From a virus (taxonomy: Duplodnaviria > Caudoviricetes), in the IMG/VR virus record IMGVR_UViG_3300010359_000007, positions 1 through 34,466 of that record: 34,466 nt of DNA. One strand, 5' to 3'. This document shows, piece by piece, positions 671 to 34,076 of this stretch. How positions within the stretch are numbered: position 1 is the first letter of the stretch; each line of letters opens with the position of its first letter. The notes under the pieces are model-generated. The model made no database searches, had not been told where the DNA came from, and saw only the letters and a program-made list of their open reading frames with translations. The translations under genes were made by a program, and so were the position numbers.

Positions 671-691
671 GGTGCGACACGTTGTCGCACC
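671..691. promoter_or_regulatory. palindromic operator, RegA/RegR/PrrA-box-like
   Basis: GGTGCGACA-CGT-TGTCGCACC immediately upstream of a putative -35. Confidence 0.65.
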
Positions 692-2580: not shown

Positions 2581-3198
2581 ATGTCTGTCATGCAAATCCC
2601 AGTGGTCAAGGCAAAGGGCCAGTTCGTCGAGATCGACACCGACAAGCTTCCCGAGGCAGTCTATGCCTACGCGCTCCAGATCGGGCTCAAGAGCTTGATG
2701 AACCGTGGGACCACGGGCAAGGATGCCAAAGACCTCGATGCCGATGGCTATCTGGCGCTTGCTGAAAAGCAGCGCGAGCAAGCCTACGCTGGCAAGACGC
2801 GGATCATTGGTGCCAAGGCCACCAAGAAGCGCGACACCGTCGAGATGGCTGAAGCTGTCCGAATCGCCAAGCAGACCGTGAAGGACATGATCAAGGCCAA
2901 CGGGGAGAAGATCTCCCACTACTCTGCTGCCGAGATCACCAAGGCCGCGAAGGCCATTGTCGAGGCCGACGCAGATACTTATCTCGCCGCAGCCCGGGAA
3001 AACCTTGCAAAGGCTGCAAGTGTTGTGGGCAAGGGCGGAAAGGCCGACATCATGGCCTTGATGGCCAAAGATGCGAAGAAGGTTGCAGCTGCGGAGGCCA
3101 AGAAGGAGAGCACAAAGAAGGAGAAGGCGGCTACCTCTGCTGGCAAAGTCCCGCCCACCAAGCCTACCGGACCGCGGGTTGTTCCTCCGCGCCACTAA
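2581..3198 (+). CDS. Ala/Lys-rich basic protein, possible DNA-binding or nucleoid-like early protein
   Basis: 205 aa, GGAG RBS, own promoter, strong codon bias, A/K-rich; function is inference. Confidence 0.75.
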   Translation: MSVMQIPVVKAKGQFVEIDTDKLPEAVYAYALQIGLKSLMNRGTTGKDAKDLDADGYLALAEKQREQAYAGKTRIIGAKATKKRDTVEMAEAVRIAKQTVKDMIKANGEKISHYSAAEITKAAKAIVEADADTYLAAARENLAKAASVVGKGGKADIMALMAKDAKKVAAAEAKKESTKKEKAATSAGKVPPTKPTGPRVVPPRH

Positions 3199-4120: not shown

Positions 4121-4390
4121 ATGTCCAGAGCAGCCCAACTAGAAAGCGCCAAGCGGATTGCCAAGTGGAAGGCCGATCAATATCTTGGCCTTGGGGTTGA
4201 AGACCTTGATTGGCTGGCTATCGAGATCCTAAGGATCAACGAAGACATAGCTATGCTCATCAAGCGCCGAGACGAGCTTATGAACAAGCAACGCGTCTTG
4301 CAAGGCCAGACCTCCAACAATCTCCAAGCCCTTGTGGCCAAGGCCATCGCTTCCTCGCCAAAGCCCAAGGGCTTCATCAGGCGAGTTTGA
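4121..4390 (+). CDS. hypothetical coiled-coil protein ending GFIRRV
   Basis: GGAGG RBS at 4111, ATG 4121. Confidence 0.75.
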   Translation: MSRAAQLESAKRIAKWKADQYLGLGVEDLDWLAIEILRINEDIAMLIKRRDELMNKQRVLQGQTSNNLQALVAKAIASSPKPKGFIRRV

Positions 4391-4459
4391 GCAGACTGTT
4401 GGGGCCACTCTGGCCCCAATGGCCTGCGCATTCCGCGTGGGGAGAAGGAGAAGACTAGA

Positions 4460-4642
4460 ATGAAGCTTGTGTCCATGACTGTTCTGGCCCTTGTGGCCGC
4501 TCTTGCCTTAGCCTCCTGTGCCAACGAAGGCCCCCGTGGTCAGGTCGGCCTTGCGGCAATTCCTGTTTGCCCACAATCACCGATCCCTCACGGTCGGCAC
4601 GATAGCCTGTGCAACCACCACGAAGGCAATGGCGGAAACTAG
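4460..4642 (+). CDS. small lipoprotein
   Basis: AAGGAG RBS; signal peptide with LASC lipobox. Confidence 0.65.
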   Translation: MKLVSMTVLALVAALALASCANEGPRGQVGLAAIPVCPQSPIPHGRHDSLCNHHEGNGGN

Positions 4643-4649
4643 CTAGGAG

Positions 4650-4674
4650 GGGGTGCGTCACTATGACGCACCCC
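4650..4674. promoter_or_regulatory. palindromic operator with the same core as 671 and 2452 (may also act as a hairpin)
   Basis: GGGGTGCGTCA-CTA-TGACGCACCCC about 50 bp upstream of promoter P3. Confidence 0.55.
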
Positions 4675-4723
4675 ACCAACCCAGGAAACTCAGCCTTTTG
4701 AGCCTCTTGAGGGCAATTGAGGC

Positions 4724-4752
4724 TTGACATTGGGTCCAAAGTGTGGTATAAT
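4724..4752 (+). promoter_or_regulatory. consensus sigma70 promoter P3
   Basis: TTGACA-N17-TATAAT with extended -10 TG. Confidence 0.9.
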
Positions 4753-4777
4753 AGTCCTTTAGGACGCGGAGGAGAAG

Positions 4778-4933
4778 ATGCAGATAGACCTAACCCGCGA
4801 GGAAATCAACGATCTAATCCGTGCCATTGAGCAGGTGGATACTTACGACACCCTATTTCGTAAACGATTACGTCCCTTGGAAGAGAAGCTAGTCCGCTAC
4901 TCCGACCAAGCGCTTAAGGAGCCACAAGAATGA
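4778..4933 (+). CDS. hypothetical 51-aa protein (MQIDLTREE...KEPQE)
   Basis: GGAGGAG RBS directly after P3; below ORF-track length cut-off, translated by hand. Confidence 0.7.
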   Translation: MQIDLTREEINDLIRAIEQVDTYDTLFRKRLRPLEEKLVRYSDQALKEPQE

Positions 4934-5082
4934 AGGACAAAGCAGAAAGGCTTGAGAAAGTCGTCAAGTGGATTTTAGAAGACGCAGCTTTCAAGGCTCC
5001 CGAGGAGTTCAACTGGCTTACTCGGCGCTATGTTGACGCCCTTGAAGCGGCTTGGCAAGGAGATAAGGAGCCTCAAGAATGA
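4915..5082 (+). repeat. 19-bp direct repeat TAAGGAGCC(A/T)CAAGAATGA at 4915-4933 and 5064-5082
   Basis: 18/19 identity; each copy holds RBS plus overlapping stop/start. Confidence 0.8.
4930..5082 (+). CDS. hypothetical 50-aa protein (MKDKAERLE...KEPQE)
   Basis: TAAGGAG RBS, ATGA coupling at both ends. Confidence 0.7.
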   Translation: MKDKAERLEKVVKWILEDAAFKAPEEFNWLTRRYVDALEAAWQGDKEPQE

Positions 5083-5345
5083 TCCATTCCCTTCTAATAA
5101 CCTCCTCCATCCTTCTGGCCCAATGCGGGCCAGAAGGAGCCTTTCGCTGTGGTCCTCCGCCGGGTCCAGGTGGCTACCCAGGCGAGTACCGCCAACCCTA
5201 TCGCTACTACTCTCCTAACATGCCCATGATGCGACCAGGGGAATATCCGCCAGTGAGGCAAGGCCCGCTATTCAACCCTCGCTATCGCTCCAGGCCAGAG
5301 TTCTACCCCGGCCCAATGTTCCCTCCCCCTCCGGGCTATAGGTGA
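5079..5345 (+). CDS. small secreted Pro/Gly/Tyr-rich protein
   Basis: hydrophobic N-terminus then low-complexity P/G/Y/R region; TAAGGAG RBS. Confidence 0.65.
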   Translation: MIHSLLITSSILLAQCGPEGAFRCGPPPGPGGYPGEYRQPYRYYSPNMPMMRPGEYPPVRQGPLFNPRYRSRPEFYPGPMFPPPPGYR

Positions 5346-5348
5346 GCT

Positions 5349-5486
5349 ATGAACCTTGTTATAGTCACCACCTCACTTGCCTTGGCCATTTGGTCCGGTC
5401 AGGTCTGGTCAATGGTAGGTTGCGCTCTCTGCGCGGGCTTTGTATATGGCCACGCAACCTGCATGTTCCAGCATAGGAAGACTTGA
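5349..5486 (+). CDS. small membrane protein, 45 aa
   Basis: AGGTG RBS, hydrophobic sequence MNLVIVTTSLALAIW..., TGATG coupling. Confidence 0.5.
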   Translation: MNLVIVTTSLALAIWSGQVWSMVGCALCAGFVYGHATCMFQHRKT

Positions 5487-5869
5487 TGCTAAAACGCTGC
5501 CTACCTGCTATCTTCCTCCTCTTGGCCTCCCTACCTGCTGTAGGAGGGCCAAAGGACCAAAATCTCCAGGCCCTTTGGGCAGAGTTCCAGACATGGAACA
5601 CCGAACGCTTAATGGAGCTACCGCATGGCGAGTTATCCCAAGGACGAGCCTCCCTTGATGCAGCTATACGCGAAGCCAGAGCCAAGGGATCTAGATCTAA
5701 GGCCAGGAGGCATAAGCTTCACCGATCTCACAAACCGCATCACAAATCCCTTAAGCGAGATTGCCCTTCTAATTGGCTCCCTGACCTATGGGGAAATGAT
5801 CGAGCTTGCCAAGGCCATTTGGGCCGTCGGCCCTATCACCGAGGCTACCCTACCACAAGTTCTTCATGA
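5486..5869 (+). CDS. putative secreted protein
   Basis: signal-peptide-like N-terminus, TGATG coupling; C-terminal half overlaps 5625..6047. Confidence 0.4.
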   Translation: MLKRCLPAIFLLLASLPAVGGPKDQNLQALWAEFQTWNTERLMELPHGELSQGRASLDAAIREARAKGSRSKARRHKLHRSHKPHHKSLKRDCPSNWLPDLWGNDRACQGHLGRRPYHRGYPTTSSS

Positions 5870-6047
5870 CTGGAGCAAGAACCATGGCAAGAAAGCGGAA
5901 GCCTCAACTAGCCTGCAAAGACTGCCACATTCCGATCATCAATCCCAACCTGAAGCTGGTGAGGTGCGAGGAGTGTCACAGGCTCTATCGGATAGCACAA
6001 AATACCAAGCGCCGGGTAACGAAAGCTCTCAAGGCCCTCAAGGCTGA
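5625..6047 (+). CDS. hypothetical helical protein
   Basis: GGAG RBS; amphipathic, globular-looking core; overlaps both neighbours. Confidence 0.55.
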   Translation: MASYPKDEPPLMQLYAKPEPRDLDLRPGGISFTDLTNRITNPLSEIALLIGSLTYGEMIELAKAIWAVGPITEATLPQVLHDWSKNHGKKAEASTSLQRLPHSDHQSQPEAGEVRGVSQALSDSTKYQAPGNESSQGPQG

Positions 6048-6072
6048 GCCAAGGCAGGGAAGCATCCAGTGA
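5884..6072 (+). CDS. basic zinc-finger protein
   Basis: GGAG RBS; CKDC...CEEC plus K/R-rich helix. Confidence 0.6.
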   Translation: MARKRKPQLACKDCHIPIINPNLKLVRCEECHRLYRIAQNTKRRVTKALKALKAEPRQGSIQ

Positions 6073-6118
6073 TGTTGTAGACGACTAGGACAGGGCTAAG
6101 CAAATCAAGGAGCTAACC

Positions 6119-6676
6119 ATGCCCACCCAAGAAGAGATTGAAGCAGCAACTAGAGCAGTTCACAAAGAAATGCTTAATTCGGCGACGACAACGGAGACCA
6201 TTGCAAGGTCTGCTCTTGCCGCCGCAGAAAACTTTATAATTGAACGATGCGCTCAAGCCAGCACAAGAGGATTTGTTCAAATGACCGACGCACCTGACAC
6301 GCTGCCGCCGGGACCGTGGCGAGTTAGCAGCAATGATGATTGTTTTGTCATAGCTGATAATGCAAAGCCGCCTCCTAAAGTAATTGTTATAGCGGATTGT
6401 TATAGTCCAGCCGTAGCCAGCGCCATCGCCGAGCGGGAACGGGAGATAGAGCGGCTGCAAGCACAGCTTGACACCCTTGGACAGATCAATCGCGAGCAAG
6501 CCGCAGCCATCAAGAAAATCACCAGCCATGAATTTGTCGAAACGGAATTCAGCAAACTCCGTGCCCGCGTGGCGGAGCTGGAGGCCGAACTTGCCGCAAC
6601 AGAACGCACGCTTAATGCCTGGATAGTCCGGGCAAAAGAATTGGAGCAAACCTATGCCCACCCCAGCAGCGTATGA
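6119..6676 (+). CDS. mosaic hypothetical protein with coiled-coil C-terminus
   Basis: AAGGAG RBS; PGPW motif and heptad repeats. Confidence 0.75.
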   Translation: MPTQEEIEAATRAVHKEMLNSATTTETIARSALAAAENFIIERCAQASTRGFVQMTDAPDTLPPGPWRVSSNDDCFVIADNAKPPPKVIVIADCYSPAVASAIAEREREIERLQAQLDTLGQINREQAAAIKKITSHEFVETEFSKLRARVAELEAELAATERTLNAWIVRAKELEQTYAHPSSV

Positions 6677-7061
6677 TTACGAGTGCGAAGACTGTATCGG
6701 AATGAAAGAGCATGGTTGCTATTGTCAAGCAGTAGGAGCAATCACACCTGGCGGTCCTTCACCCGAGGCTGTGAAGTCTCGTGATGTAATTCCATGCGAC
6801 AAACTTTCGGAATGTGATTGGCCGGCTTGCCCTCCCACTTGTAAGGGACGTCCTGGAGGACCCATGCCTACCCCAGAAGAGATTGAAGCGGCGAAAAAGT
6901 CAATGCTAAAGCTAATTCCGCATGATCTGCCAATCACGGAACGTGACGTCGCTGTGTTAGCAGAAGCCGCCCTCGCCGCTGCGGAGGCCGTGCGGGAAGA
7001 ACCAAGAGGGTGTCCGACGCCAGGTGCTTGTTCGTGTCTGCCTCCAAGGGAGGAAACGTAA
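6654..7061 (+). CDS. Cys-rich mosaic protein with internal in-frame start at 6864
   Basis: GGAG RBS; three Cys clusters; GGAGG before the internal MPTPEEIEAA. Confidence 0.65.
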   Translation: MPTPAAYDYECEDCIGMKEHGCYCQAVGAITPGGPSPEAVKSRDVIPCDKLSECDWPACPPTCKGRPGGPMPTPEEIEAAKKSMLKLIPHDLPITERDVAVLAEAALAAAEAVREEPRGCPTPGACSCLPPREET

Positions 7062-7312
7062 TGACCAATAATCCACGAGACATGCTGGGAGAAATCGGCA
7101 GGCTTGAAGATAAATTAGAAAAAACCGAAGCCCGCATCCGGGAACTGGAGGCCGACAACAAGAAAATGCTAGCAATATTAGGCGGAAATATGGCCGCTCC
7201 AATGGGCTACAGCTTGCTGATTGAAGCAAACAAGAAGCTAAATGCCCAAGTGGCAGAACTAACAAAGGAGCTAGAAGCCAATGGACTGCGGAGCTTGGAC
7301 AAACAACGATAG
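7061..7312 (+). CDS. coiled-coil protein
   Basis: GGAGG RBS, TAATG coupling. Confidence 0.7.
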   Translation: MTNNPRDMLGEIGRLEDKLEKTEARIRELEADNKKMLAILGGNMAAPMGYSLLIEANKKLNAQVAELTKELEANGLRSLDKQR

Positions 7313-7556
7313 AATCCCCTACGTCCTAAGGATCAGGGGATGCGAGTTCGGCCTCACTGGCGCGGATCTCTGCGAGATCAGGGAGCATATAGATAACATC
7401 CTGAAAGGCCACCTGGAGAGTATCTCCGAGGACTGTCGGGATCTAAGGATCCAGAAGCGGAATCAAATGCGTGGGGTTGACCTTGTCAAGCGCCTAGGGA
7501 TCCCCACCAAACCCAAACCGACCTTCGTTCTGGAAGGCTTTGTGAGGAGAGTCTAG
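7281..7556 (+). CDS. hypothetical protein ending GFVRRV
   Basis: AAGGAG RBS, 91 aa. Confidence 0.7.
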   Translation: MDCGAWTNNDRIPYVLRIRGCEFGLTGADLCEIREHIDNILKGHLESISEDCRDLRIQKRNQMRGVDLVKRLGIPTKPKPTFVLEGFVRRV

Positions 7557-7796
7557 ATGGCCATTCGCCTTCCCTACGAAACCAAGGCCGGCGAGTTCTC
7601 CGAAGCAGAGAGCATCCTCCAGCTGATCGAACACCTGCGCCTTGCCGCTGAGGCAGCCTACTCGGTCGGCCACTTTCGCAAGGCCAACGATGATCTCCTC
7701 ACGGGCCAGATGTTCCTTGCCTACGGACAAGCGTTTGAGAAGGCCTGCGAGATGATCTCTCGAACGGCCACTAGACACGCAGGAGCGCCCAACTGA
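7557..7796 (+). CDS. hypothetical helical protein
   Basis: GAGGAG RBS, abuts previous stop. Confidence 0.75.
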   Translation: MAIRLPYETKAGEFSEAESILQLIEHLRLAAEAAYSVGHFRKANDDLLTGQMFLAYGQAFEKACEMISRTATRHAGAPN

Positions 7797-7969
7797 TGAC
7801 TGAAGACGACCTCCCAAGGCAAATCACCTGCGTCATCGGGAATAGAAAACACGTCCTCTACCTGCGATCCGACGAAGGGCCAGGTGAGTACATCTATGCC
7901 ACGCCCAGGTCGAAAGCCATCAATGGGGAGGATCCTATAACAGTATATATTCCAAAGGAGCGACACTAA
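7796..7969 (+). CDS. hypothetical 57-aa protein
   Basis: AGGAG RBS, TGATG coupling, translated by hand (MTEDDLPRQ...). Confidence 0.6.
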   Translation: MTEDDLPRQITCVIGNRKHVLYLRSDEGPGEYIYATPRSKAINGEDPITVYIPKERH

Positions 7970-8012
7970 TGCCCTTCTTTCCAGCCCTTGAAGCAGCCAC
8001 AAGGAGCCCCAC

Positions 8013-9422
8013 ATGGACCCAACCCCAGAGCAACAAACCATCCTGGAAGGCGTTGCAGGATCTGACACCAACCTCCAAATCAACGCCTACGCAGGATGCG
8101 GAAAGACCTCCACCCTCGGGCTCATCGAACGAGCGGTAAAAGGCCCAACCCTTTGCTTGGCCTTCAACAAGGCCGTTAAGGAAGAGATGGAGGAACGCTT
8201 TGGTGCGAATACGACGGTTAAAACCCTCAACGGCCTCGGCCACTCGGTCTGGGCCTCTACCTGCTCCTCAAGGCCAATCCTCAACACCGACAAGTGCAAG
8301 GCCATCCTCAGGGAGAAAGTCAAGGCCCTTGGGAAAGAAGACCGTGACGCGGCATGGGAAGGCTTCTACGAAATCCTCGCAGCAGTCGGCCTTGCCAAAA
8401 GCCTTGGCTACATCCCTGAAGGAAAGTTCCCAGCAGCCAAGCGCCTCCTCTCCAGAGACGAATTGGTCGGAAGGCTTGAGGAAAAGCCCACTGATCTCCA
8501 ACTCGCTTTACTGGACGCAACCCTCCACCAATCAATCCTCTCTGCCTATCATGGCAACATCGATTTTAACGATCAGATATACATGCCCGGGCTGTTCGGC
8601 GGATCGTTCCCAAAGTTTCCCCTTGTTCTTGTCGACGAGGCTCAAGATCTCAGTCCCACAAATCATGAAATGCTGCTGCGAATGCGGACATCGCGTATCG
8701 TTTCTGTTGGTGACCCCTTCCAATCCATCTATCAGTTCCGAGGGGCCTGCCAGAATGGAATGGGTCGATTGGCCAGCCAGTTTAGAATGACCGAGCTTCC
8801 TCTCAGCGTCAGCTGGCGTTGTCCTAGCGAGGTGGTGAAGAATGCCCAATGGAGAGTACCCAAGTTCCGCTGGTCAAGGGAAGGCGGACGAGTGGAGAGG
8901 CTTGGACATCTTAACTTTGATGACATTCCTCCAGGAAGCGCGATCATCTGTCGTAACAACGCTCCCTTGTTCAGCCTTGCGTCCTCGGCGATATCTAACG
9001 GCCGGTCTGTTAGCGTGGCAGGATCAGATCTTAGCGCAAAGCTGGTCGGTGTCATGCGCCGATTCGGGGACTCGTCGCTACCTCGACCCGCAGTTCTGTC
9101 TGCCATCGACGAGTGGTACTTTAAGCGCCAAGAGGCCGGGTCCAAGACCGCTGGGGACGCAGCCGAGTGTATGCGGATCTTTGCTAACAAGGGCAAAGAC
9201 CTTGGCCAGGCGATTGCTTATGCTGAAGACATCTTCAAGCAGAAGGGCTCCGTCAGGCTAACCACGGGCCACAAAGCCAAGGGCCTTGAATGGCCTCACG
9301 TCTACCATCTTGATCCCTGGCTCCTAGGGGACGATGAGCAGGAGCTAAACCTCCGCTACGTGATCCAAACCCGCGCAGCAGAGGGCTACTACGAGATAGA
9401 ATCGAGGAACATAGAATGGTGA
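8013..9422 (+). CDS. UvrD/Rep-like superfamily 1 DNA helicase
   Basis: motifs AYAGCGKTS, LAFNK, VDEAQD, VGDPFQSIYQFRGA, SWRCP, ICRNN, HKAKGLEW, YVIQTRA. Confidence 0.95.
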   Translation: MDPTPEQQTILEGVAGSDTNLQINAYAGCGKTSTLGLIERAVKGPTLCLAFNKAVKEEMEERFGANTTVKTLNGLGHSVWASTCSSRPILNTDKCKAILREKVKALGKEDRDAAWEGFYEILAAVGLAKSLGYIPEGKFPAAKRLLSRDELVGRLEEKPTDLQLALLDATLHQSILSAYHGNIDFNDQIYMPGLFGGSFPKFPLVLVDEAQDLSPTNHEMLLRMRTSRIVSVGDPFQSIYQFRGACQNGMGRLASQFRMTELPLSVSWRCPSEVVKNAQWRVPKFRWSREGGRVERLGHLNFDDIPPGSAIICRNNAPLFSLASSAISNGRSVSVAGSDLSAKLVGVMRRFGDSSLPRPAVLSAIDEWYFKRQEAGSKTAGDAAECMRIFANKGKDLGQAIAYAEDIFKQKGSVRLTTGHKAKGLEWPHVYHLDPWLLGDDEQELNLRYVIQTRAAEGYYEIESRNIEW

Positions 9423-9802
9423 CGCCAATCTCTAGACTAGCCTACGCCGCGGAGTATGACCTGATGGACCAGGCCATGGAAAGCGAGCGTGGTGTGCAAA
9501 GGCTGTTTCCCAATGAGGCCAATGGCCGGGGGGCAGCGTTCAACTTTCGTACACGGCTCCACAAGGCCAGAGACTACGATCGAAAGGAGAATAGAAAGCT
9601 CTACGGCCCAGAGGATCCCCTCTACGGCCAGACGATCTACGCCCAGCTAACCGTCCATGATCCCTACTGGGACGAGGATAAGCAGGCTTGGGTTCTGCGG
9701 ATCGTTAAGAACCAAATCACGGAGATGATCATCGAGGAGATCCCTCCGGTGAGGGAAGAGCCTGAGGAGCCCGAGGTCAAGACCTTCGAGAGGCGTGTGT
9801 GA
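9416..9802 (+). CDS. hypothetical protein ending TFERRV
   Basis: GAGG RBS, overlaps helicase stop. Confidence 0.8.
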   Translation: MVTPISRLAYAAEYDLMDQAMESERGVQRLFPNEANGRGAAFNFRTRLHKARDYDRKENRKLYGPEDPLYGQTIYAQLTVHDPYWDEDKQAWVLRIVKNQITEMIIEEIPPVREEPEEPEVKTFERRV

Positions 9803-10038
9803 GCGACCAGGATGTTGCCGCTGAGGTGTGGGCATCTGCCCTTGAGCACCCCTACGGCGTAAGGATCGAAACGGACGACGTTCAACGCTTGGTGGCGGTC
9901 TTGTACGAGTACAAGCGCCAATCCGACGATCCGCGCCTGCTTTCCTACACTGTCTCTCAGCGAGGAAGCTTCGTCTTGGTTGCTAAGACCAAGGTGGAGT
10001 TGAAGACGAATGGAGAACATAGACCGTTGGAGGTTTAA
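9799..10038 (+). CDS. hypothetical protein
   Basis: GTGA coupling, GAGAGG RBS. Confidence 0.7.
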   Translation: MSDQDVAAEVWASALEHPYGVRIETDDVQRLVAVLYEYKRQSDDPRLLSYTVSQRGSFVLVAKTKVELKTNGEHRPLEV

Positions 10039-10287
10039 GTGACGAAGGAAGTCGAGATTATTCCCCCAGGAGGCGACCCAACCCTTGAGGCCCTAAATCG
10101 AGCAGCCGCTGAGATGACGCCACAGGACATCGACCTCATCATCGCCTACCAGCGGAAGCAGCGAGGGGCCTGGGAGAGGGGCGAAAGGCCAAAGAAAGGC
10201 GACGGCGGCAATTCGCCAGCCTTGAGTAAGCTTCTCAACCTGCCTTCCCCGGTCAAGATGACGGGAGAGTTTAAGAGGAGGGTTTGA
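10039..10287 (+). CDS. hypothetical protein ending EFKRRV
   Basis: GGAGGT RBS, GTG start. Confidence 0.75.
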   Translation: MTKEVEIIPPGGDPTLEALNRAAAEMTPQDIDLIIAYQRKQRGAWERGERPKKGDGGNSPALSKLLNLPSPVKMTGEFKRRV

Positions 10288-10442
10288 TGACACAACTTGA
10301 GACAGCGGCAAGGGACTTAGCCACCATGGCCTTGAAGGGCACTGAGGCTAGCCAAGAGGACCAAGAACAGCTAGCAGAAGCTTTGTTTAGGCTTTGCGAG
10401 GACGCTAGAATAGTAATGACAGGAGCCATCGATGAGCATTAA
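10287..10442 (+). CDS. hypothetical 51-aa helical protein
   Basis: GAGGAGG RBS, TGATG coupling, translated by hand (MTQLETAARD...). Confidence 0.6.
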   Translation: MTQLETAARDLATMALKGTEASQEDQEQLAEALFRLCEDARIVMTGAIDEH

Positions 10443-10746
10443 TGAATGGATGAAGAAATGGTTAGGGATTTGGGATCTGGAGTATCGGATTGCTAAGCTC
10501 GATGCCGAAACCCGTACTAATCGTGACCATCTACACAGATTGGACCGCCGTATCGTGGAACTCGAACGCCAGGCCCGCGTCAACCGCGAGGCCATCGAGA
10601 AGGCCATCAACAACCGAATGGACCTGCGGAGCGAGTTCTCCAAGGAGCGCCAAGCGGAGAGCGACAAGATCGGCGAGGAGGCCCTCAAGCGCCTAACGGC
10701 CGAAGACGCTGCTCGCCGTCATACGGAAGGCAAGATGAATGGATGA
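10432..10746 (+). CDS. coiled-coil protein
   Basis: AGGAG RBS, heptad pattern. Confidence 0.7.
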   Translation: MSINEWMKKWLGIWDLEYRIAKLDAETRTNRDHLHRLDRRIVELERQARVNREAIEKAINNRMDLRSEFSKERQAESDKIGEEALKRLTAEDAARRHTEGKMNG

Positions 10747-11677
10747 CCAAACGCCAGTCCAAAGCCCCTTCATCACCGGCACCCAGATCCAATGGGCCTG
10801 GGACTCGACCTGCCTTGGGGACTTTAAGAAGTGCCCGCGGTACTACTACTACAAGCGGATAGAAGGCTGGACGCGCGAAGGCGCTATCCACCTTCGTTGG
10901 GGCGGGGAGTTCCACACAGCCGTTGAGGAATACGAACATGCCCGAGCAGAAGGATACAGACACGACGATGCAGTCCATTTCTCTTTACGGGGTTTGTTTG
11001 AACGTATCGAGGAGTGGGACCCGGACCCCAGGTCAAAGAGCGAGGAGCTTAAGACGAAGGCTAATCTCGTTCGAACAGTTGTTTGGTACTTCGACCACTA
11101 TGAAGACGACTCCGCGAAGACGATGGTTCTCGCGAATGGTAAACCTGCGGTAGAGGTTAGCTTTCAGTTTGAACTGGACTATGGGCCCCAGAACGGCGTG
11201 GCCAACTACACCCTCTGCGGCCACCTCGACAAGGTCGTCCACTTTAACGACGACCTCTTTGTCCTTGATCACAAAACCACCACTACCACCCCGGCGTCGA
11301 CTTACTTTGAAAAATACGACACCGATAACCAAATGACCCTCTACACCCTGGCGGGCCAGATTGTGCTCAACGCCCCAATCAAGGGAGTGATCGTCGATGC
11401 TATACAGGTTGCTGTTGGTTTCAGCCGTTTCACTCGTGGTATCACTTACCGTACTCAGGACCAACTCGACGAGTGGTTGGACCATACAAAAGACTGGCTG
11501 GCATACGCTGAACGATGTGCTAGCGAAGGGTTTTGGCCGATGAATGATACGAGTTGCGACAAGTACGGCGGATGTGAGTTTCGCGGAGTATGTGGACGAA
11601 GCCCGAACGTGAGGCAGAGGTGGTTAGAGGCGGAATTTAGAAAGGAAGAACCATGGAACCCTCTCAAGCCGAGATGA
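10739..11677 (+). CDS. Cas4/AddB-like PD-(D/E)XK exonuclease with 4-Cys Fe-S staple
   Basis: N-terminal KKCPR, GHLD...DHKT, QMTLY, C-terminal CDKYGGCEFRGVC. Confidence 0.88.
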   Translation: MDDQTPVQSPFITGTQIQWAWDSTCLGDFKKCPRYYYYKRIEGWTREGAIHLRWGGEFHTAVEEYEHARAEGYRHDDAVHFSLRGLFERIEEWDPDPRSKSEELKTKANLVRTVVWYFDHYEDDSAKTMVLANGKPAVEVSFQFELDYGPQNGVANYTLCGHLDKVVHFNDDLFVLDHKTTTTTPASTYFEKYDTDNQMTLYTLAGQIVLNAPIKGVIVDAIQVAVGFSRFTRGITYRTQDQLDEWLDHTKDWLAYAERCASEGFWPMNDTSCDKYGGCEFRGVCGRSPNVRQRWLEAEFRKEEPWNPLKPR

Positions 11678-11874
11678 GACAAGCGTGGGAGCAGATGCAG
11701 AACCTTAATAAGTTCTTCAATACCATCGAAGGTCGACTTATCTATGAGTTGATGATTAAAGTAGGCCATCGGCAAGAGGAGCTTAGGGTCCTTCGAGAAC
11801 GCCTAATTTCAATCGCAGAACGGCAGATGGATAGGCCCTTCGTACTGAAGGAGAAGCCCAATGCCAACCCTTAA
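11653..11874 (+). CDS. hypothetical protein
   Basis: AAGGAAG RBS, fills gap in operon. Confidence 0.6.
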   Translation: MEPSQAEMRQAWEQMQNLNKFFNTIEGRLIYELMIKVGHRQEELRVLRERLISIAERQMDRPFVLKEKPNANP

Positions 11875-12748
11875 GGATCATCAATCCAATGAATACATCA
11901 AACTCCTCATCGAAGGTGACTCTAAGTCGGGGAAAACTGGAGCACTTGCTTCACTTGTCACGGCTGGCTATGACCTCCGTGTCCTTGACTACGACAACGG
12001 GCTCGATGTCCTTAAACAGTTTATCCTTCGATCATCTCCGGGAGACCTTGAAAAAGTTGAATTTCGAACTCTCCGAGATAAGCGCATCGCAGGGCCAGCA
12101 GGGCCAAAGATCGACGGAACTCCAAAGGCATTCTCTGATGGAATCAAGATGCTGGATCGATGGCAGTATCGGACTGACGATGGTGTCGAGATTGACTATG
12201 GAGTCCCAGCTGTTTGGGGGCCCGGAGTCATATGTGTTCTCGACTCCCTTACCTTTTTCGGTGACGCCGCCTTCGATTATCGCGAACCACTCGCTTCTAA
12301 GGGACGAGATGGAAAGTATGATCTACGAGCAGTATACAAGGATGCGCAAGATGCTGTCGAGAATGTCATCGCTCTTCTCACCAGCGAGCACTTCCGGACC
12401 AACGTCATAGTGATAAGCCACGTCAAGTATGTGGACAACCCTGATGGGACCCGCAAGGGCTACCCCTCTGCCATAGGCTCAGCCCTCTCACCCCTGATCC
12501 TAAGGTACTTTAACAACGTGGTGAGATTCACTATGCGCGGAGCCAAGCGGAGTATCGAGACAGTGTCGAACCCTATGTTCGATCTGGCAAACGCTAAGCC
12601 GTTCGAGATGAAAGCTAGTTATGATATCGAGAACGGCCTTGCGGAGATCTTTGCTTGCCTCAGGCCACCACCAAGGAAGGAGGCGCCGGCAAAGCCATCT
12701 GTTCCAACCATAGCTAAACCCCTACTGAAACCTGTAAGGAGAGTCTAA
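11861..12748 (+). CDS. AAA_24 / Sak4-like P-loop ATPase (recombination), ending KPVRRV
   Basis: Walker A GDSKSGKT, VLDSLT, VISH; located between exonuclease and SSB-like gene. Confidence 0.8.
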   Translation: MPTLKDHQSNEYIKLLIEGDSKSGKTGALASLVTAGYDLRVLDYDNGLDVLKQFILRSSPGDLEKVEFRTLRDKRIAGPAGPKIDGTPKAFSDGIKMLDRWQYRTDDGVEIDYGVPAVWGPGVICVLDSLTFFGDAAFDYREPLASKGRDGKYDLRAVYKDAQDAVENVIALLTSEHFRTNVIVISHVKYVDNPDGTRKGYPSAIGSALSPLILRYFNNVVRFTMRGAKRSIETVSNPMFDLANAKPFEMKASYDIENGLAEIFACLRPPPRKEAPAKPSVPTIAKPLLKPVRRV

Positions 12749-12750
12749 AC

Positions 12751-13194
12751 ATGAGCACACCATCCTTCGCCCCCATCCTGGACCGTCCTGCTTCTGAGAT
12801 CGAGCGCCCGAAGCCCATCCCTGCTGGAACCTACACTGCCCTGGTGAAAGGCCTGCCGGAATTTGGCGAGAGCAGCCAGAAGAAGACGCCCTATGCAAGG
12901 TTCACCTTCGAACTCTTGGCGGCTGGAGACGACATCGATCAGGAGGCCCTTGAGGAGATGGGCGGCATCGGAGGGAAGACCCTTCGGAACGACTACTACC
13001 TCACCGAGGATGCCCTTTGGAGAATCAAGCAGTTCGCTGAGGACTGCGGAGTGGATCCTGAAGGCCTGACGGTTGGCCAGATGCTGGAGTATGCAAACGG
13101 AGCCCAGGTCCAGGTCGTGGTGAGGCATGAGCCTGCCCGAGATGGGAGTGATAACATCTTCGCCCGGGTTGCAAAGACCGCACCGGTCGCGTGA
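12751..13194 (+). CDS. DUF669-like single-stranded DNA-binding protein
   Basis: PIPAGTY N-terminal motif, beta-rich pattern, adjacent to Sak4-like ATPase. Confidence 0.7.
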   Translation: MSTPSFAPILDRPASEIERPKPIPAGTYTALVKGLPEFGESSQKKTPYARFTFELLAAGDDIDQEALEEMGGIGGKTLRNDYYLTEDALWRIKQFAEDCGVDPEGLTVGQMLEYANGAQVQVVVRHEPARDGSDNIFARVAKTAPVA

Positions 13195-13320: not shown

Positions 13321-13614
13321 ATGCCAAGACACCAGTACCATCAAGATGGCGCAAAGAATAGTATGTGGAAGGGAGGCTTATCGCGATCGACGATCGAAAG
13401 AACAACAAGAAAAGTTTTAAAAGAAGCTGGCCGCGATCTTAATACGTGCGAACGGTGCCAATTCAACACGCCATTTCAGGAGCTTCCTCGACACCACAAA
13501 GATCGCGATCGCGGTAATAACACGGTAGAGAACTTAGAAGTCTTATGCTGGGGTTGTCATAACGCTGAGCATAATAAAACCAGGATCCGTAATGTACTGG
13601 GGCAATTCGAATGA
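13321..13614 (+). CDS. free-standing HNH endonuclease
   Basis: AAGGAG RBS; WKGG, CERC, HHKDRDRGNN..ENLEVLCWGCHNAEH; AT-richer than flanks. Confidence 0.88.
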   Translation: MPRHQYHQDGAKNSMWKGGLSRSTIERTTRKVLKEAGRDLNTCERCQFNTPFQELPRHHKDRDRGNNTVENLEVLCWGCHNAEHNKTRIRNVLGQFE

Positions 13615-14627
13615 CAGCTATAGCATTAGTGGGGGAGGCATATGGAGAGGCCGAAGAACGAACCCGCCAACCCTTTCAAGGAGCCGCAGGATATGAACTC
13701 AACAAAATGCTTTCTGAGTCAGGCATCCGTCGCGCTGACTGTCTCGTCACTAATGTATTTAATCTACGGCCCAGAGGAAACGATGTCAAGAGTCTTTGCG
13801 GGCCAAAACCTGCTGGCTTGGTTGGCTATCCTTCTCTGGGCAAGAGTCTCTATGTAGCGAACGAGCTTAGACCTCACTTGGAAAGGCTAGCGGATGAGCT
13901 TATCGAATTTAATCCCAACGTGGTTGTTGCGCTGGGTAACACTGCGATGTGGGCTCTTACTGGCAGGACGGCAATTTCTAAATTCCGAGGTTCCACGGTG
14001 CTTTCGAGCCACACTGTTAGTGGATTTAAAACCCTACCAACATATCACCCTGCGGCTATATTACGGCAATGGGACCTACGACCAGTGGCCGTTATCGACC
14101 TTGCCAAAGCCCTCCGCGAGTCGGCCTTCCCAGAGATCCGCCGACCGCACAGGGAGATCTGGATAGAGCCAACCCTGGAGGATATCTATGAGTTCCACGA
14201 GAAGCATATTAGGGGATGCCAAATCCTTAGTGTCGACACTGAAACGGTTGGACGAAGAATTACATGCATTGGATTTGCACCTTCACACCACAGAGCGATC
14301 GTCATCCCGTTCGATGACCCGGGCAGACTGGGTGGAAATTACTGGCCTTCTCCTAAACTTGAACGTCAGGTCTGGGACTATGTCAAGGAAGTGTGTGAGG
14401 ACCCTAACCCGCCTAAGCTCTTCCAAAACGGCCTCTACGACATAGCCTTTACCTTCAAGGGCTACGGAATCAAGATCGCTGGAGCAAGGGAAGACACCAT
14501 GCTCCTTCACTACAGTCTCCAGCCTGAGAGCCTCAAGGGATTGGGTTTCTTGGGCTCTGTTTATTGCGACGAGGGCTCCTGGAAGGAGATGCGGGAGCAC
14601 AAGAAGACTTTGAAGAGGGATGATTGA
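13611..14627 (+). CDS. family-4-like uracil-DNA glycosylase fused to partial 3'-5' exonuclease (N-terminal half of split PolA)
   Basis: UDG motifs GEAYG..E....PFQGAAG, TNV...RP..N, TYHPAA; ExoI DTET, ExoII FQNGLYD, DTML; no ExoIII. Confidence 0.88.
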   Translation: MTAIALVGEAYGEAEERTRQPFQGAAGYELNKMLSESGIRRADCLVTNVFNLRPRGNDVKSLCGPKPAGLVGYPSLGKSLYVANELRPHLERLADELIEFNPNVVVALGNTAMWALTGRTAISKFRGSTVLSSHTVSGFKTLPTYHPAAILRQWDLRPVAVIDLAKALRESAFPEIRRPHREIWIEPTLEDIYEFHEKHIRGCQILSVDTETVGRRITCIGFAPSHHRAIVIPFDDPGRLGGNYWPSPKLERQVWDYVKEVCEDPNPPKLFQNGLYDIAFTFKGYGIKIAGAREDTMLLHYSLQPESLKGLGFLGSVYCDEGSWKEMREHKKTLKRDD

Positions 14628-18144: not shown

Positions 18145-18807
18145 TTAGAACTTGTAGAGATACTTGGCTAGGACCTCTTGCTCTTGGCCGATCTTGATCG
18201 GGATTCCGGCAGCGTCCACGCCCTTGTCGTAGTTGACGTGGCGATATTCGACAGCAACGGCTGAGTGACCACCGAGGGTATACTCGATCCCAGCACCAGC
18301 CAGGAAGCCTGAAAGGTGCTCCCGCTGCCTACCGCCGACGATAAGGAAGGGCGACATCATTGCGCCATTCAAGGCCTGGATCGGCGAGATCGGGCCATTG
18401 GCTGGAGAGGGCGCGGAGTTGAATAGGCCCTGAAGGCCATAGCCGGCCTTGCCTACATAGTCCACCGACCAGTTGGTGTTGACCCCAGCGATGTTGGAGA
18501 TGGTGGAGTTGGTCCCAGCGTAGTAGGTGCCAGAGAGTTCGGCGGCCAAAAAGAACTGGCCATTCCAAAACTGGTAGCCGATGTCACCGCCAAGGCCAAC
18601 CCCATTGGAGAAGATCGAGCCATTGATGCCAGAGCCTACGATATCGGCGCTAGTACCTCCACCTGCGATATGGAAGCCTCCGTAGAAGCCTGTGCAAGCA
18701 ACGACGGTGCAGCCCGTGTAGGCAGGAAGCACTGGCGCTTTCTGCGGTAGATCAGCTGCCAAGGCCGGTGAGGCCAGCAGTGTGGTGGCGAGTAGAATCT
18801 TCTTCAT
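18145..18807 (-). CDS. Omp25/RopB-like outer-membrane beta-barrel protein
   Basis: signal peptide MKKILLA...ALAADLPQKAP, TGFYGG, GYQF, GAGIEY, EYRH, C-terminal YLYKF barrel signal. Confidence 0.85.
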   Translation of the reverse strand: MKKILLATTLLASPALAADLPQKAPVLPAYTGCTVVACTGFYGGFHIAGGGTSADIVGSGINGSIFSNGVGLGGDIGYQFWNGQFFLAAELSGTYYAGTNSTISNIAGVNTNWSVDYVGKAGYGLQGLFNSAPSPANGPISPIQALNGAMMSPFLIVGGRQREHLSGFLAGAGIEYTLGGHSAVAVEYRHVNYDKGVDAAGIPIKIGQEQEVLAKYLYKF

Positions 18808-32991: not shown

Positions 32992-33270
32992 TTAGTGTCT
33001 CCCCTGGCCTCCAGCTGGCCGCGGAGAGTCGCCGCCGATCCCTGGAGCGCCAGAGCTTTGGCAAGACCCATAGTCGCCGCCCTGGGCTCCGTCCCGCCGA
33101 GGGGAGTCACCGTGAAGGCCTACTCCTTTGGGATCGTAGGGCGTCTTGACCCTCGTCGGCGGCTGGTAGTCGTTGACATCCCGCTCACCTGGGCGAGAGA
33201 GTCCAGTGAGGCGCTGAGAGCCCATAGTGCGTTCAGGTCCGTACTCGGAGAGGATTCCTCTTCGTGCCAT
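32992..33270 (-). CDS. Gly/Pro/Arg-rich low-complexity protein
   Basis: GGAGG RBS, TAATG coupling; internal GDSPR repeated twice. Confidence 0.65.
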   Translation of the reverse strand: MARRGILSEYGPERTMGSQRLTGLSRPGERDVNDYQPPTRVKTPYDPKGVGLHGDSPRRDGAQGGDYGSCQSSGAPGIGGDSPRPAGGQGRH

Positions 33271-33431
33271 TATTCTTCCTCCTGAGCAGCGGGCTCTTCC
33301 GGGGGAGCCTGCATGGCTTGAAGCTCAGCCGTTGCAGCATCCCGAAGGGCAGTGAAGCTGGTGCCGTGGCGAGCACAGGCTTCGATCACATTGAGGAGGG
33401 TAAGGACATGTTCCCAATCACCGGGTTTCAT
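33270..33431 (-). CDS. hypothetical 53-aa protein (MKPGDWEHV...)
   Basis: GGGAG RBS, coupled at both ends, translated by hand. Confidence 0.6.
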   Translation of the reverse strand: MKPGDWEHVLTLLNVIEACARHGTSFTALRDAATAELQAMQAPPEEPAAQEEE

Positions 33432-33610
33432 TCGAATCTCCCTTGCACGCCTTTGTTAAAGACGCTCTGACGGCACTTCAGGGGATCAGTCTCAGCATAG
33501 CCGTCGTCTGCTAAGTACTGATTCACTTCCCGCGATCCGTCGCGGGTGTTGGATTCTCCCAGGCGTTTAGCGACCCAGCCCGGGTAAGGGGGGTTGCCTT
33601 GGATGATCAT
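33428..33610 (-). CDS. hypothetical protein
   Basis: GGGAG RBS, TGATG coupling. Confidence 0.6.
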   Translation of the reverse strand: MIIQGNPPYPGWVAKRLGESNTRDGSREVNQYLADDGYAETDPLKCRQSVFNKGVQGRFE

Positions 33611-33849
33611 CAGTGGCTCCCTTGGGATCCTGATCGCTTGACATCACGATTGCCACCAGGGCCTTGTTCCATCCCATCGGTAGGGCCTATATGGGCAGCA
33701 TAGCCCTTGCCCATAGAGATCTTCTCAGCTGCCCTTGGGTCAATAGCAGAGCCAAGCTGGGAAGGGAAGTTGGGGTTGATAGCGTAGGGCCGAGGCTCTC
33801 GATGCCAGCCCTCCTTGACGTTGCGATCTGCGTAGCCTTGCTTTTTCAT
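33610..33849 (-). CDS. Gly-rich low-complexity protein
   Basis: AAGGA RBS, ATGA coupling. Confidence 0.65.
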   Translation of the reverse strand: MKKQGYADRNVKEGWHREPRPYAINPNFPSQLGSAIDPRAAEKISMGKGYAAHIGPTDGMEQGPGGNRDVKRSGSQGSH

Positions 33850-34076
33850 TCCATTGGTCCTTTCGTTGCGGCTTTGACTGCGTGCATCGCACCAGTCTCA
33901 AAGCAATCGGCAGCAAGCCGAATGAGACGATCTCTTTCGGTTGTGATAGAGGGATCGCCTTCGGGCATATTGTAGATAAGATCGATCAGATCAGCCGCAG
34001 CACGTTTGATCTTATTGACCTGCTCATTGCCGCCCGGATTGAACGAGATTCCAACTCTATATTCACCTAGTGTCAT
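33846..34076 (-). CDS. Acb2/Tad1-like helical hairpin protein (putative nucleotide-signal sponge)
   Basis: FNP..N..V.KIK..AADLID and RL..LA...FETGAM.AVKAAT resemble Acb2-family helices. Confidence 0.6.
   Translation of the reverse strand: MTLGEYRVGISFNPGGNEQVNKIKRAAADLIDLIYNMPEGDPSITTERDRLIRLAADCFETGAMHAVKAATKGPME

What the first reader, a model, noticed from the sequence alone, without database searches (positions are those of the whole stretch)
4121..12748. Five unrelated proteins share a C-terminal (F)-x-R-R-V tag: candidate docking or degradation system
Seen: 4121..4390 ends SPKPKGFIRRV*, 7281..7556 ends PKPTFVLEGFVRRV*, 9416..9802 ends PEEPEVKTFERRV*, 10039..10287 ends PSPVKMTGEFKRRV*, and the Sak4-like ATPase 11861..12748 ends PTIAKPLLKPVRRV*. 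The bodies of these proteins look unrelated. Each tag follows a Pro-rich, probably disordered linker, and four of five have Phe at the same position. Codons differ (AGG-CGA-GTT-TGA, AGG-AGA-GTC-TAG, AGG-CGT-GTG-TGA, AGG-AGG-GTT-TGA, AGG-AGA-GTC-TAA), which favours selection on the peptide. No minus-strand structural gene has the tag; the DUF3987 helicase ends in a near match (KTYRRS). Inference: a short linear motif that lets several early proteins bind one hub (phage or host), or a timed degron resembling basic-hydrophobic ClpX C-terminal signals. Caveat: AGGAG doubles as the next gene's RBS in three cases, but the 4390 copy has no coupled downstream start and an RBS does not explain the Phe or terminal Val.
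Basis: partly seen in the sequence, partly recalled or inferred. Interest (0 to 1): 0.88.

Follow-up and report, generated by a model that had tools for sequence, protein, structure and literature searches.

The report
Shared basic tail on phage proteins
Five unrelated proteins of this uncultured phage, and about one gene in eleven across its relatives, end in the same short arginine-pair tail that is kept at the protein level and changes in step within each genome, so it likely plugs them into one shared partner, probably made by the phage and not yet identified.

Summary
The five RRV ends are real and far beyond chance. The tag (hydrophobic-x-[RK]-[RK]-[VILF]-stop) marks one clade of uncultured podophages with BPP-1-like heads: 129 of 1442 gene ends in 26 families, against 0 of 502 in the sister clade. 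It is selected as peptide: it survives without a ribosome-binding site, a close strain swaps AGG for CGC in the uncoupled copy, and tails are not DNA copies. The last residue (V, I, L, F, A) switches genome-wide between close relatives. Virion proteins and core replication enzymes never carry it; Sak4, terminase-small-subunit-like, HNH-type and small accessory proteins do, late-strand genes included. Phe is a local flavour; the DUF3987 near-match is not conserved. Cultured BPP-1 and Caulobacter phage BL94 tag similar roles with an acidic tail. Best reading: a docking motif for one phage-encoded hub (0.5; SSB at 12751 and the 79-aa gene at 7557 are candidates); rival: host ClpXP degron (0.25). 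The partner is not shown. The scan noted shared C-terminal tags with other sequences in other phages; its look-ups returned none for this motif or clade.

The parts
4121..4390 (+). 89-aa orphan protein, tagged; no downstream coupled gene (next start 69 nt away)
   Evidence: no Pfam/PHROG hit
4373..4390 (+). tag F-I-R-R-V-stop, the uncoupled copy; first Arg codon AGG is CGC in strain contigs of runs X2 and X4
7281..7556 (+). 91-aa protein, tagged; both homologues found are tagged too (one ends KRRF, one MRRL)
7476..7502 (+). older amphipathic motif (D-L-x-x-x-L-G-I type) that precedes the basic tag in small proteins and is itself the C-terminus in tag-less relatives
7539..7556 (+). tag F-V-R-R-V-stop; AGGAG doubles as RBS of 7557
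7557..7796 (+). 79-aa protein of no known family, with conserved Glu25, Glu32, His39; candidate reader by distribution only (10 of 10 tag-clade genomes; one weak hit among 7 outgroups); never tagged
9416..9802 (+). 128-aa conserved protein behind the UvrD helicase; tagged in 15 of 31 distinct family ends
9785..9802 (+). tag F-E-R-R-V-stop; strain contigs change the linker in front but keep E-R-R-V
10039..10287 (+). 82-aa helical protein before the PD-(D/E)XK nuclease; tagged in 24 of 36 distinct family ends; sister-clade homologues stop at the older L-G-L helix
10270..10287 (+). tag F-K-R-R-V-stop; AGGAGG doubles as RBS
11861..12748 (+). Sak4-like RecA-fold annealing ATPase; residues 276-295 predicted disordered; tagged in 25 of 44 distinct family ends
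12731..12748 (+). tag P-V-R-R-V-stop; AGGAG doubles as RBS of the SSB
12751..13194 (+). phage SSB without an acidic tail, on average more acidic in the tag clade; candidate reader; never tagged (0 of 48)

Best explanation
The last five residues form a short peptide motif, kept by selection on the protein and exposed on a predicted flexible Pro/Lys-rich tail, that likely docks otherwise unrelated accessory proteins onto one common partner, probably a protein of the phage itself acting at its replicating DNA. Shown: the motif, its restriction to one clade, selection at peptide level, its absence from virion proteins and core replication enzymes, and the switch of its last residue in step across a genome. 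Inferred: a pocket with an acidic site for the Arg pair and a hydrophobic site for the last residue; when the pocket changes, all tails follow. Where a gene is coupled downstream, the Arg codons also serve as its ribosome-binding site.
For: Clade restriction 129/1442 vs 0/502 and 3/215; 115 terminal vs 4.7 expected from internal frequency. RBS null fails: 81 of 455 coupled RBS-bearing genes are tagged in the clade, 1 of 217 outside; RBS-like bases in 81/102 coupled vs 12/25 uncoupled tags, p 0.004 (first set 57/71 vs 4/16, p 5e-5); AGG to CGC in the uncoupled window copy. No DNA copying: same codon at 128 of 406 shared residues, 149 expected. In-step change: 94 of 212 within-genome pairs share the last residue, 41 expected, maximum 68 in 5000 within-family shuffles; 50/86 vs 18 on six lineages; no visible link to GC; close neighbours of the window use V, A/G/D, F and L. 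A P-I-K-R-R-[IF]-stop DNA pattern hit this clade in 17 of 20 viral contigs. Acidic tails mark the small terminase, the post-cement gene and SSB of BPP-1 (Bordetella) and BL94 (Caulobacter), so there the tag type follows phage lineage, not host class. Sak4 is known to work with its own SSB through an SSB tail (PMC5928155) that this SSB lacks, while this Sak4 gained one.
Against: No column of any conserved phage protein tracked the tag flavour convincingly; the best was z 7.4 in the nuclease against 9.3 for a tag residue itself. Sak4 and the post-cement protein keep their own flavours in some genomes. SSB acidity has exceptions (net 0 in G002, -1 in L058, -5 in three tag-less outgroups). The 7557 family has a weak homologue in tag-less G035. 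The DNA polymerase and helicases are untagged, unlike the T4 clamp case. Tagged roles are so mixed (nucleases, late small proteins) that shared turnover is as simple an account. Hosts are unknown, so in-step change could follow host switches. The clade's small-terminase-like and post-cement proteins show no sequence likeness to those of BPP-1 or BL94; the parallel is positional, and both acidic patterns were chosen after seeing the ends.
Confidence: 0.5

Rival explanations
1. The tail is a degron or tether for a host AAA+ protease, most likely ClpXP: accessory proteins are cleared or disassembled after use, or the small ones act as SspB-like adaptors.
For: Basic pair plus hydrophobic end on a free disordered tail resembles C-motif-2 substrates MuA and FtsZ (PMC3983244; PMC12723719); only non-structural, non-core proteins are tagged; ClpX N-domains are species-specific (PMC5422525), which could give lineage flavours; domain-linker-tail layout as in SspB (PMC12373786).
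Against: 0 of 115 tags match R/H-x-K/R-K-hydrophobic; Lys at -2 in 18, Arg/His at -5 in 2. No other virus group used the tag in two collection scans, though these patterns are narrow. Flavour changes between close relatives. Two cultured Caulobacter phages lack it.
Confidence: 0.25
2. The tail binds another host hub (for example a polar scaffold, RNA polymerase or a division protein) that differs between host species.
For: Flavours could track host switches; the nearest named cellular relative of the phage's outer-membrane protein is from Bradyrhizobium (30% identity), a group with many species.
Against: No host is assigned: the genome scan found only mis-binned phage contigs. No known host ligand of this form was found.
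Confidence: 0.13
3. The tail is a non-specific basic extension that binds DNA or anionic membrane, with no pocket.
For: Tails are Pro- and Lys-rich (0.12 and 0.10 vs 0.05 and 0.06); many carriers act on DNA; in some lineages the end is R, G or D.
Against: Fixed register at the very end and in-step change of the last residue are not expected without a specific reader; non-DNA-binding-looking late proteins carry it.
Confidence: 0.09
4. The RR-hydrophobic end is a by-product of the next gene's Shine-Dalgarno sequence, or a rare-codon pause signal.
For: AGG/AGA make up 128 of 176 Arg codons in coupled tags against 24% genome-wide.
Against: 1 of 217 coupled RBS-bearing genes outside the clade ends so; 13 of 25 uncoupled tags have no RBS-like bases; all six Arg codons occur; AGG to CGC in a strain.
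Confidence: 0.03

Closest known systems
T4/RB69 C-terminal sliding-clamp epitopes of gp43, gp55 and gp33 binding gp45 (PMC2988020, passages read)
   Same: Unrelated phage proteins end in one short interchangeable motif behind a variable unstructured linker and share one phage-encoded hub.
   Different: T4 motif is hydrophobic and acidic, on three proteins including the polymerase; here it is basic, on 26 families, never on the polymerase, and no clamp gene was recognised.
ClpX C-motif-2 degrons (MuA, FtsZ) and the SspB XB tether (PMC3983244, PMC12723719, PMC12373786, passages read)
   Same: Basic pair with a hydrophobic residue at a free, disordered C-terminus.
   Different: Published consensus met by 0 of 115 tags; XB ends in Lys and need not be terminal; no degradation shown here.
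SSB C-terminal tails, e.g. HK620 SSB recruiting Sak4 (PMC5928155) and the DUF669-Sak4 'Healer' pair (PMC13687109), passages read
   Same: A terminal hexapeptide links an SSB and a Sak4 encoded side by side.
   Different: There the acidic tail is on the SSB; here the SSB has no tail and a basic one sits on Sak4 and on many other proteins.
Acidic D/G-L-V-type tails of BPP-1 and BL94 (seen here; literature not searched)
   Same: Shared end on small terminase, post-cement protein and ssDNA-handling proteins of phages with the same head type.
   Different: Opposite charge; there the SSB itself is tagged; replication modules are not homologous beyond a weak PolA match.

Membership tests
ClpX C-motif-2 degron | consensus R/H-x-K/R-K-hydrophobic near the C-terminus (as given in PMC3983244) | tested here: not met
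   0 of 115 tags
ClpX C-motif-2 degron | basic residues on a free unstructured C-terminus | tested here: met
   Sak4 tail pLDDT under 50 over 276-290 and 293-295; basic pair at -3,-2
ClpX C-motif-2 degron | ClpXP-dependent degradation, transferable | not testable with these tools
   needs reporter assays
SspB-type XB tether | binds the ClpX zinc-binding domain | tested here: inconclusive
   see Tried and rejected
T4-type clamp-binding tail | hydrophobic-acidic terminal motif | tested here: not met
   motif is basic; 27 acidic of 805 last-seven residues
T4-type clamp-binding tail | carried by the DNA polymerase | tested here: not met
   PolA 0 of 38, UDG-exonuclease subunit 0 of 39
T4-type clamp-binding tail | shared by unrelated proteins behind a variable linker | tested here: met
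   26 families; linker changes beside a kept tag
T4-type clamp-binding tail | a phage-encoded hub binds the tails | tested here: inconclusive
   profile and covariation screens give candidates only
SSB C-terminal tail (DDDIPF type) | acidic tail on the SSB | tested here: not met
   SSB ends at its last strand in all aligned members
Capsid cargo-loading signal | goes with one capsid type and marks packaged proteins | tested here: not met
   G034 and G035 have the same capsid family (62-67% identity) but only 3 of 68 and 0 of 53 broad matches; internal virion proteins 0 of 50 ends

The most novel reading that the evidence does not exclude
Mid-sized podophages with their own DNA polymerase run a private addressing system: a five-residue tail, evolved afresh on any protein with a free end, docks recombinase, small terminase and accessory proteins on one phage-encoded reader, and tail and reader co-evolve so fast that sister lineages use mutually distinct codes, up to a full charge reversal between this clade (basic) and BPP-1/BL94 (acidic).
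Probability: 0.3. Interest if true: 0.85.

Novelty: new variant of a known kind. Interest (0 to 1): 0.66.

Why it matters
The tag labels which of the many unknown small proteins belong to one network. The acidic counterpart in culturable Caulobacter phage BL94 makes the question testable now, and lineage-specific tail-reader pairs would be orthogonal recruitment tags. If it is a degron instead, it is a new protease signal read out of 129 natural examples.

Tried and rejected
Co-folding the last 33 residues of the 10039 protein with the Bradyrhizobium ClpX N-domain dimer plus zinc gave no answer (score 0.01, mark 0.32); it counts neither way. No RNA holder listed. Host assignment from GTDB genomes failed: 8 loci, all apparently mis-binned phage contigs; the outer-membrane protein had no plasmid or phage match. 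Covariation between tag flavour and columns of 27 phage families gave nothing convincing. Folding 10039 gave three helices, pTM 0.45, no PDB match. Atlas searches of 9416 (unnamed viral clusters) and 7557 (0.82, lead only) named nothing; Pfam and PDB sequence searches of the 7557 alignment found nothing significant. Second DNA pattern (P-[IVM]-K-R-R-V-stop): 12 loci, none at a gene end, none of this clade. Rejected: DUF3987 KTYRRS as a tag; recent tail copying by recombination; GC bias; capsid loading. The BL94 count typed into one search was wrong for its pattern and is replaced. Recalled, untested resemblances (MinD membrane helix, proline-rich termination-blocking peptides, beta-clamp motifs for the older L-G-L end) were left as leads. 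The RegR-box idea for the palindromes could not be confirmed.
Full report
What the window is. The record is a linear, about 71% complete virus contig. The plus strand holds early genes and a replication block: UvrD helicase 8013, PD-(D/E)XK nuclease 10739, Sak4-like ATPase 11861, SSB 12751, a family-A polymerase split into a UDG-exonuclease and a polymerase gene, and a DUF3987 helicase; the minus strand holds internal virion and tail-tube genes. Complete relatives are 44-52 kb with a major capsid protein 48% identical to BPP-1 Bbp17. The closest cultured relative by Sak4 and polymerase is Caulobacter phage Kuura at 28-36%. The host is unknown; the nearest named cellular relative of the outer-membrane protein at 18145-18807 is from Bradyrhizobium (30%). 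Related strains were laid from soil metagenome runs.

Observation. The five ends, coordinates and codons are correct. The bodies are unrelated. Five RRV ends among 52 called genes have P 2.5e-12 under residue frequencies, and no tripeptide reached more than three in 20,001 resamplings of real ends.

Range. From 64 and then 80 of 390 Sak4-bearing loci and stretches of 24 larger records I called genes with a simple hexamer model (genes scoring under 3 and duplicate ends were dropped before counting). The strict tag [RK][RK][VILF]-stop ends 129 of 1442 genes in 67 records of one clade, in 26 families; 0 of 502 in 25 records of the sister clade; 3 of 215 in 8 more distant records. The tagged clade is a single branch on a Sak4 plus nuclease tree rooted on Kuura. 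Position -5 is L/I/V/F/M in 71 of 115, Phe in only 16. Carriers: Sak4 25 of 44 distinct ends, the 10039 family 24 of 36, the 9416 family 15 of 31, a gene placed before the large terminase with a weak terminase hit (E 0.026) 5 of 12, a late protein behind the cement gene 6 of 12, HNH 2 of 10, GIY-YIG-like 4 of 4. Never tagged: SSB 0/48, UDG-exonuclease 0/39, nuclease 0/44, PolA 0/38, DUF3987 0/32, UvrD 0/29, and ten virion or packaging families 0/126 (these denominators include a few sister-clade loci). A DNA pattern for P-I-K-R-R-[IF]-stop over all viral contigs gave 22 loci on 20 contigs, 17 of them this clade; the pattern was built from the clade, so it speaks only to absence elsewhere. A second pattern gave 12 chance hits.

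Peptide, not RBS. Most tags are coupled to a downstream start and use AGG/AGA, so the codons do double duty. But RBS-like bases fall from 81 of 102 coupled tags to 12 of 25 uncoupled ones (p 0.004; 57/71 vs 4/16 in the first, smaller set), and coupled RBS-bearing genes outside the clade end this way in 1 of 217 cases against 81 of 455 inside. In contigs of runs X2 and X4 the uncoupled 4390 copy has AGG changed to CGC, Ile to Val at the free position and three silent changes nearby (543 other difference rows were not shown). At 9802 an X4 contig of depth 4 alters four linker residues and keeps the tag, and an X2 contig has Leu for Phe. After 7555 and 10290 strains carry different downstream sequence, yet align through the tag (7 rows not shown).

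In-step change. Within a genome, unrelated families share the last residue: 94 of 212 pairs against 41 expected, never above 68 in 5000 within-family shuffles (18 records, some related; 62/166 vs 30 without the two richest), and 50/86 vs 18 after collapsing to six lineages. Shared residues use the same codon in 128 of 406 cases, 149 expected, so tails are not recent DNA copies; flavour shows no visible link to GC. The window uses V; its neighbours use A/G/D (G026, L035), F (G028), L (L017, L198). G024 uses F-R-R-R. So the invariant part is hydrophobic-x-R-R at the end, and the last residue is set per lineage. This is what a changing reader would produce.

An older layer. In the small carriers an amphipathic L-x-x-L-G-L stretch precedes the tag. 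In tag-less relatives the same families stop there, and in G035 four unrelated proteins end in L-[SN]-L-x-D-L-G-L. The basic tag was therefore added behind an earlier shared end.

A parallel in cultured phages. BPP-1 ends 6 of 49 proteins in [DG]-L-[VI] (0.07 expected): small terminase, Bbp15 behind the cement gene, methylase, exonuclease, SSB, Bbp45. BL94 ends 8 of 52 in an acidic stretch plus Val (1.0 expected), including small terminase, primase and the post-cement gene. BcepC6B scores 0 of 46 by that rule but ends four corresponding genes in D-L-A, D-L-Q or E-L-D. phiV10, AF and CP2, with similar heads but no annotated polymerase, score 2/55, 1/65, 0/40 (patterns chosen after seeing the ends). 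BPP-1 and BL94 infect different proteobacterial classes, so their shared acidic type follows the phage. No homology links their tagged proteins to ours.

Mechanism. Shown: motif, selection, distribution, coordination, predicted disorder of the Sak4 tail. Inferred: a single reader with an acidic and a hydrophobic site, probably phage-encoded (0.5). The SSB is the best-named candidate: Sak4 proteins are recruited by their own SSB through a terminal peptide (PMC5928155, passages); this SSB has no tail, Sak4 gained one only in the tag clade, and the SSB is more acidic there (-4.4 vs -2.3 per 100 residues, four clade-specific acidic columns), with exceptions. The 79-aa gene at 7557 fits by distribution and a conserved Glu-Glu-His stripe at seven-residue spacing, but nothing more. 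Against both, no column followed the flavour. The ClpXP reading (0.25) explains the mixed set of carriers well and the chemistry is near C-motif 2, but the printed consensus is met by 0 of 115.

Known and new. Shared C-terminal docking motifs are known from T4 (PMC2988020), SSB tails and ClpX signals. Papers seen as passages only: PMC12723719, PMC12373786, PMC3983244, PMC5422525, PMC10665427, PMC13687109, PMC5928155, PMC2988020, PMC4064962; all others as listings. The scan's own notes describe similar tag systems with different sequences in other, mostly larger phages and returned nothing on this clade. Verdict: a real, clade-wide, peptide-level tag with an unidentified reader; new variant of a known kind; interest 0.66.

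Noticed in passing
L200 (BPP-1) 18009, 25734, 29758, 35386, 36107, 39249; L199 (BL94) 1644, 2868, 5162, 7081, 8700, 11348, 19280, 35669: Cultured BPP-1 and BL94 carry their own shared acidic C-terminal tag on small terminase, post-cement protein, SSB and others; BcepC6B (L204) has a D-L-[AQ] variant.
   Followed up: partly
window 673-689, 2453-2469, 2474-2490, 4654-4670: Four copies of the palindrome TGCG[AT]CA-N3-TG[AT]CGCA (0 in 100 shuffles), three just upstream of sigma-70-like promoters at 2491 and 4724; single similar copies in 6 of 21 relatives. Likely operators; the RegR/RegA-box likeness is recalled, not confirmed.
   Followed up: partly
L158/L159 (G035) and sister-clade 10039 homologues: Older shared end L-[SN]-L-x-D-L-G-L on four unrelated small proteins of G035; Kuura has D-D-L-L/F ends on two genes.
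   Followed up: partly
window 32992-33270, 33428-33610, 33610-33849 (-): Small Gly-rich late proteins share a second C-terminal motif, G-S-Q-G-[KR]-x, across the clade.
   Followed up: no
window 2581-3198 (+): Lys/Ala-rich 205-aa protein present in all relatives; basic in the tag clade, acidic in outgroups; 7 of 17 ends are His, as in Lon-type degrons (PMC10665427).
   Followed up: no
window 13611-14627 and 10739-11677 (+): The UDG-exonuclease ends in a conserved T-[ILV]-K-[RK]-[DE]-[DE] in both clades, whose first four residues resemble the tag; the nuclease ends in a conserved W-N-P-L-x-x-R.
   Followed up: no
window 33846-34076 (-): Acb2/Tad1-type anti-defence protein (PF24729, E 3e-8) inside the late block.
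   Followed up: no
window 33270-33431 (-): Truncated-looking member of a late family whose relatives are tagged; the window copy ends in acidic residues.
   Followed up: partly
window 18145-18807 (-): Phage-borne outer-membrane beta-barrel-like protein with about 37 homologues at 39-95% identity; possible superinfection-exclusion gene, untested.
   Followed up: no
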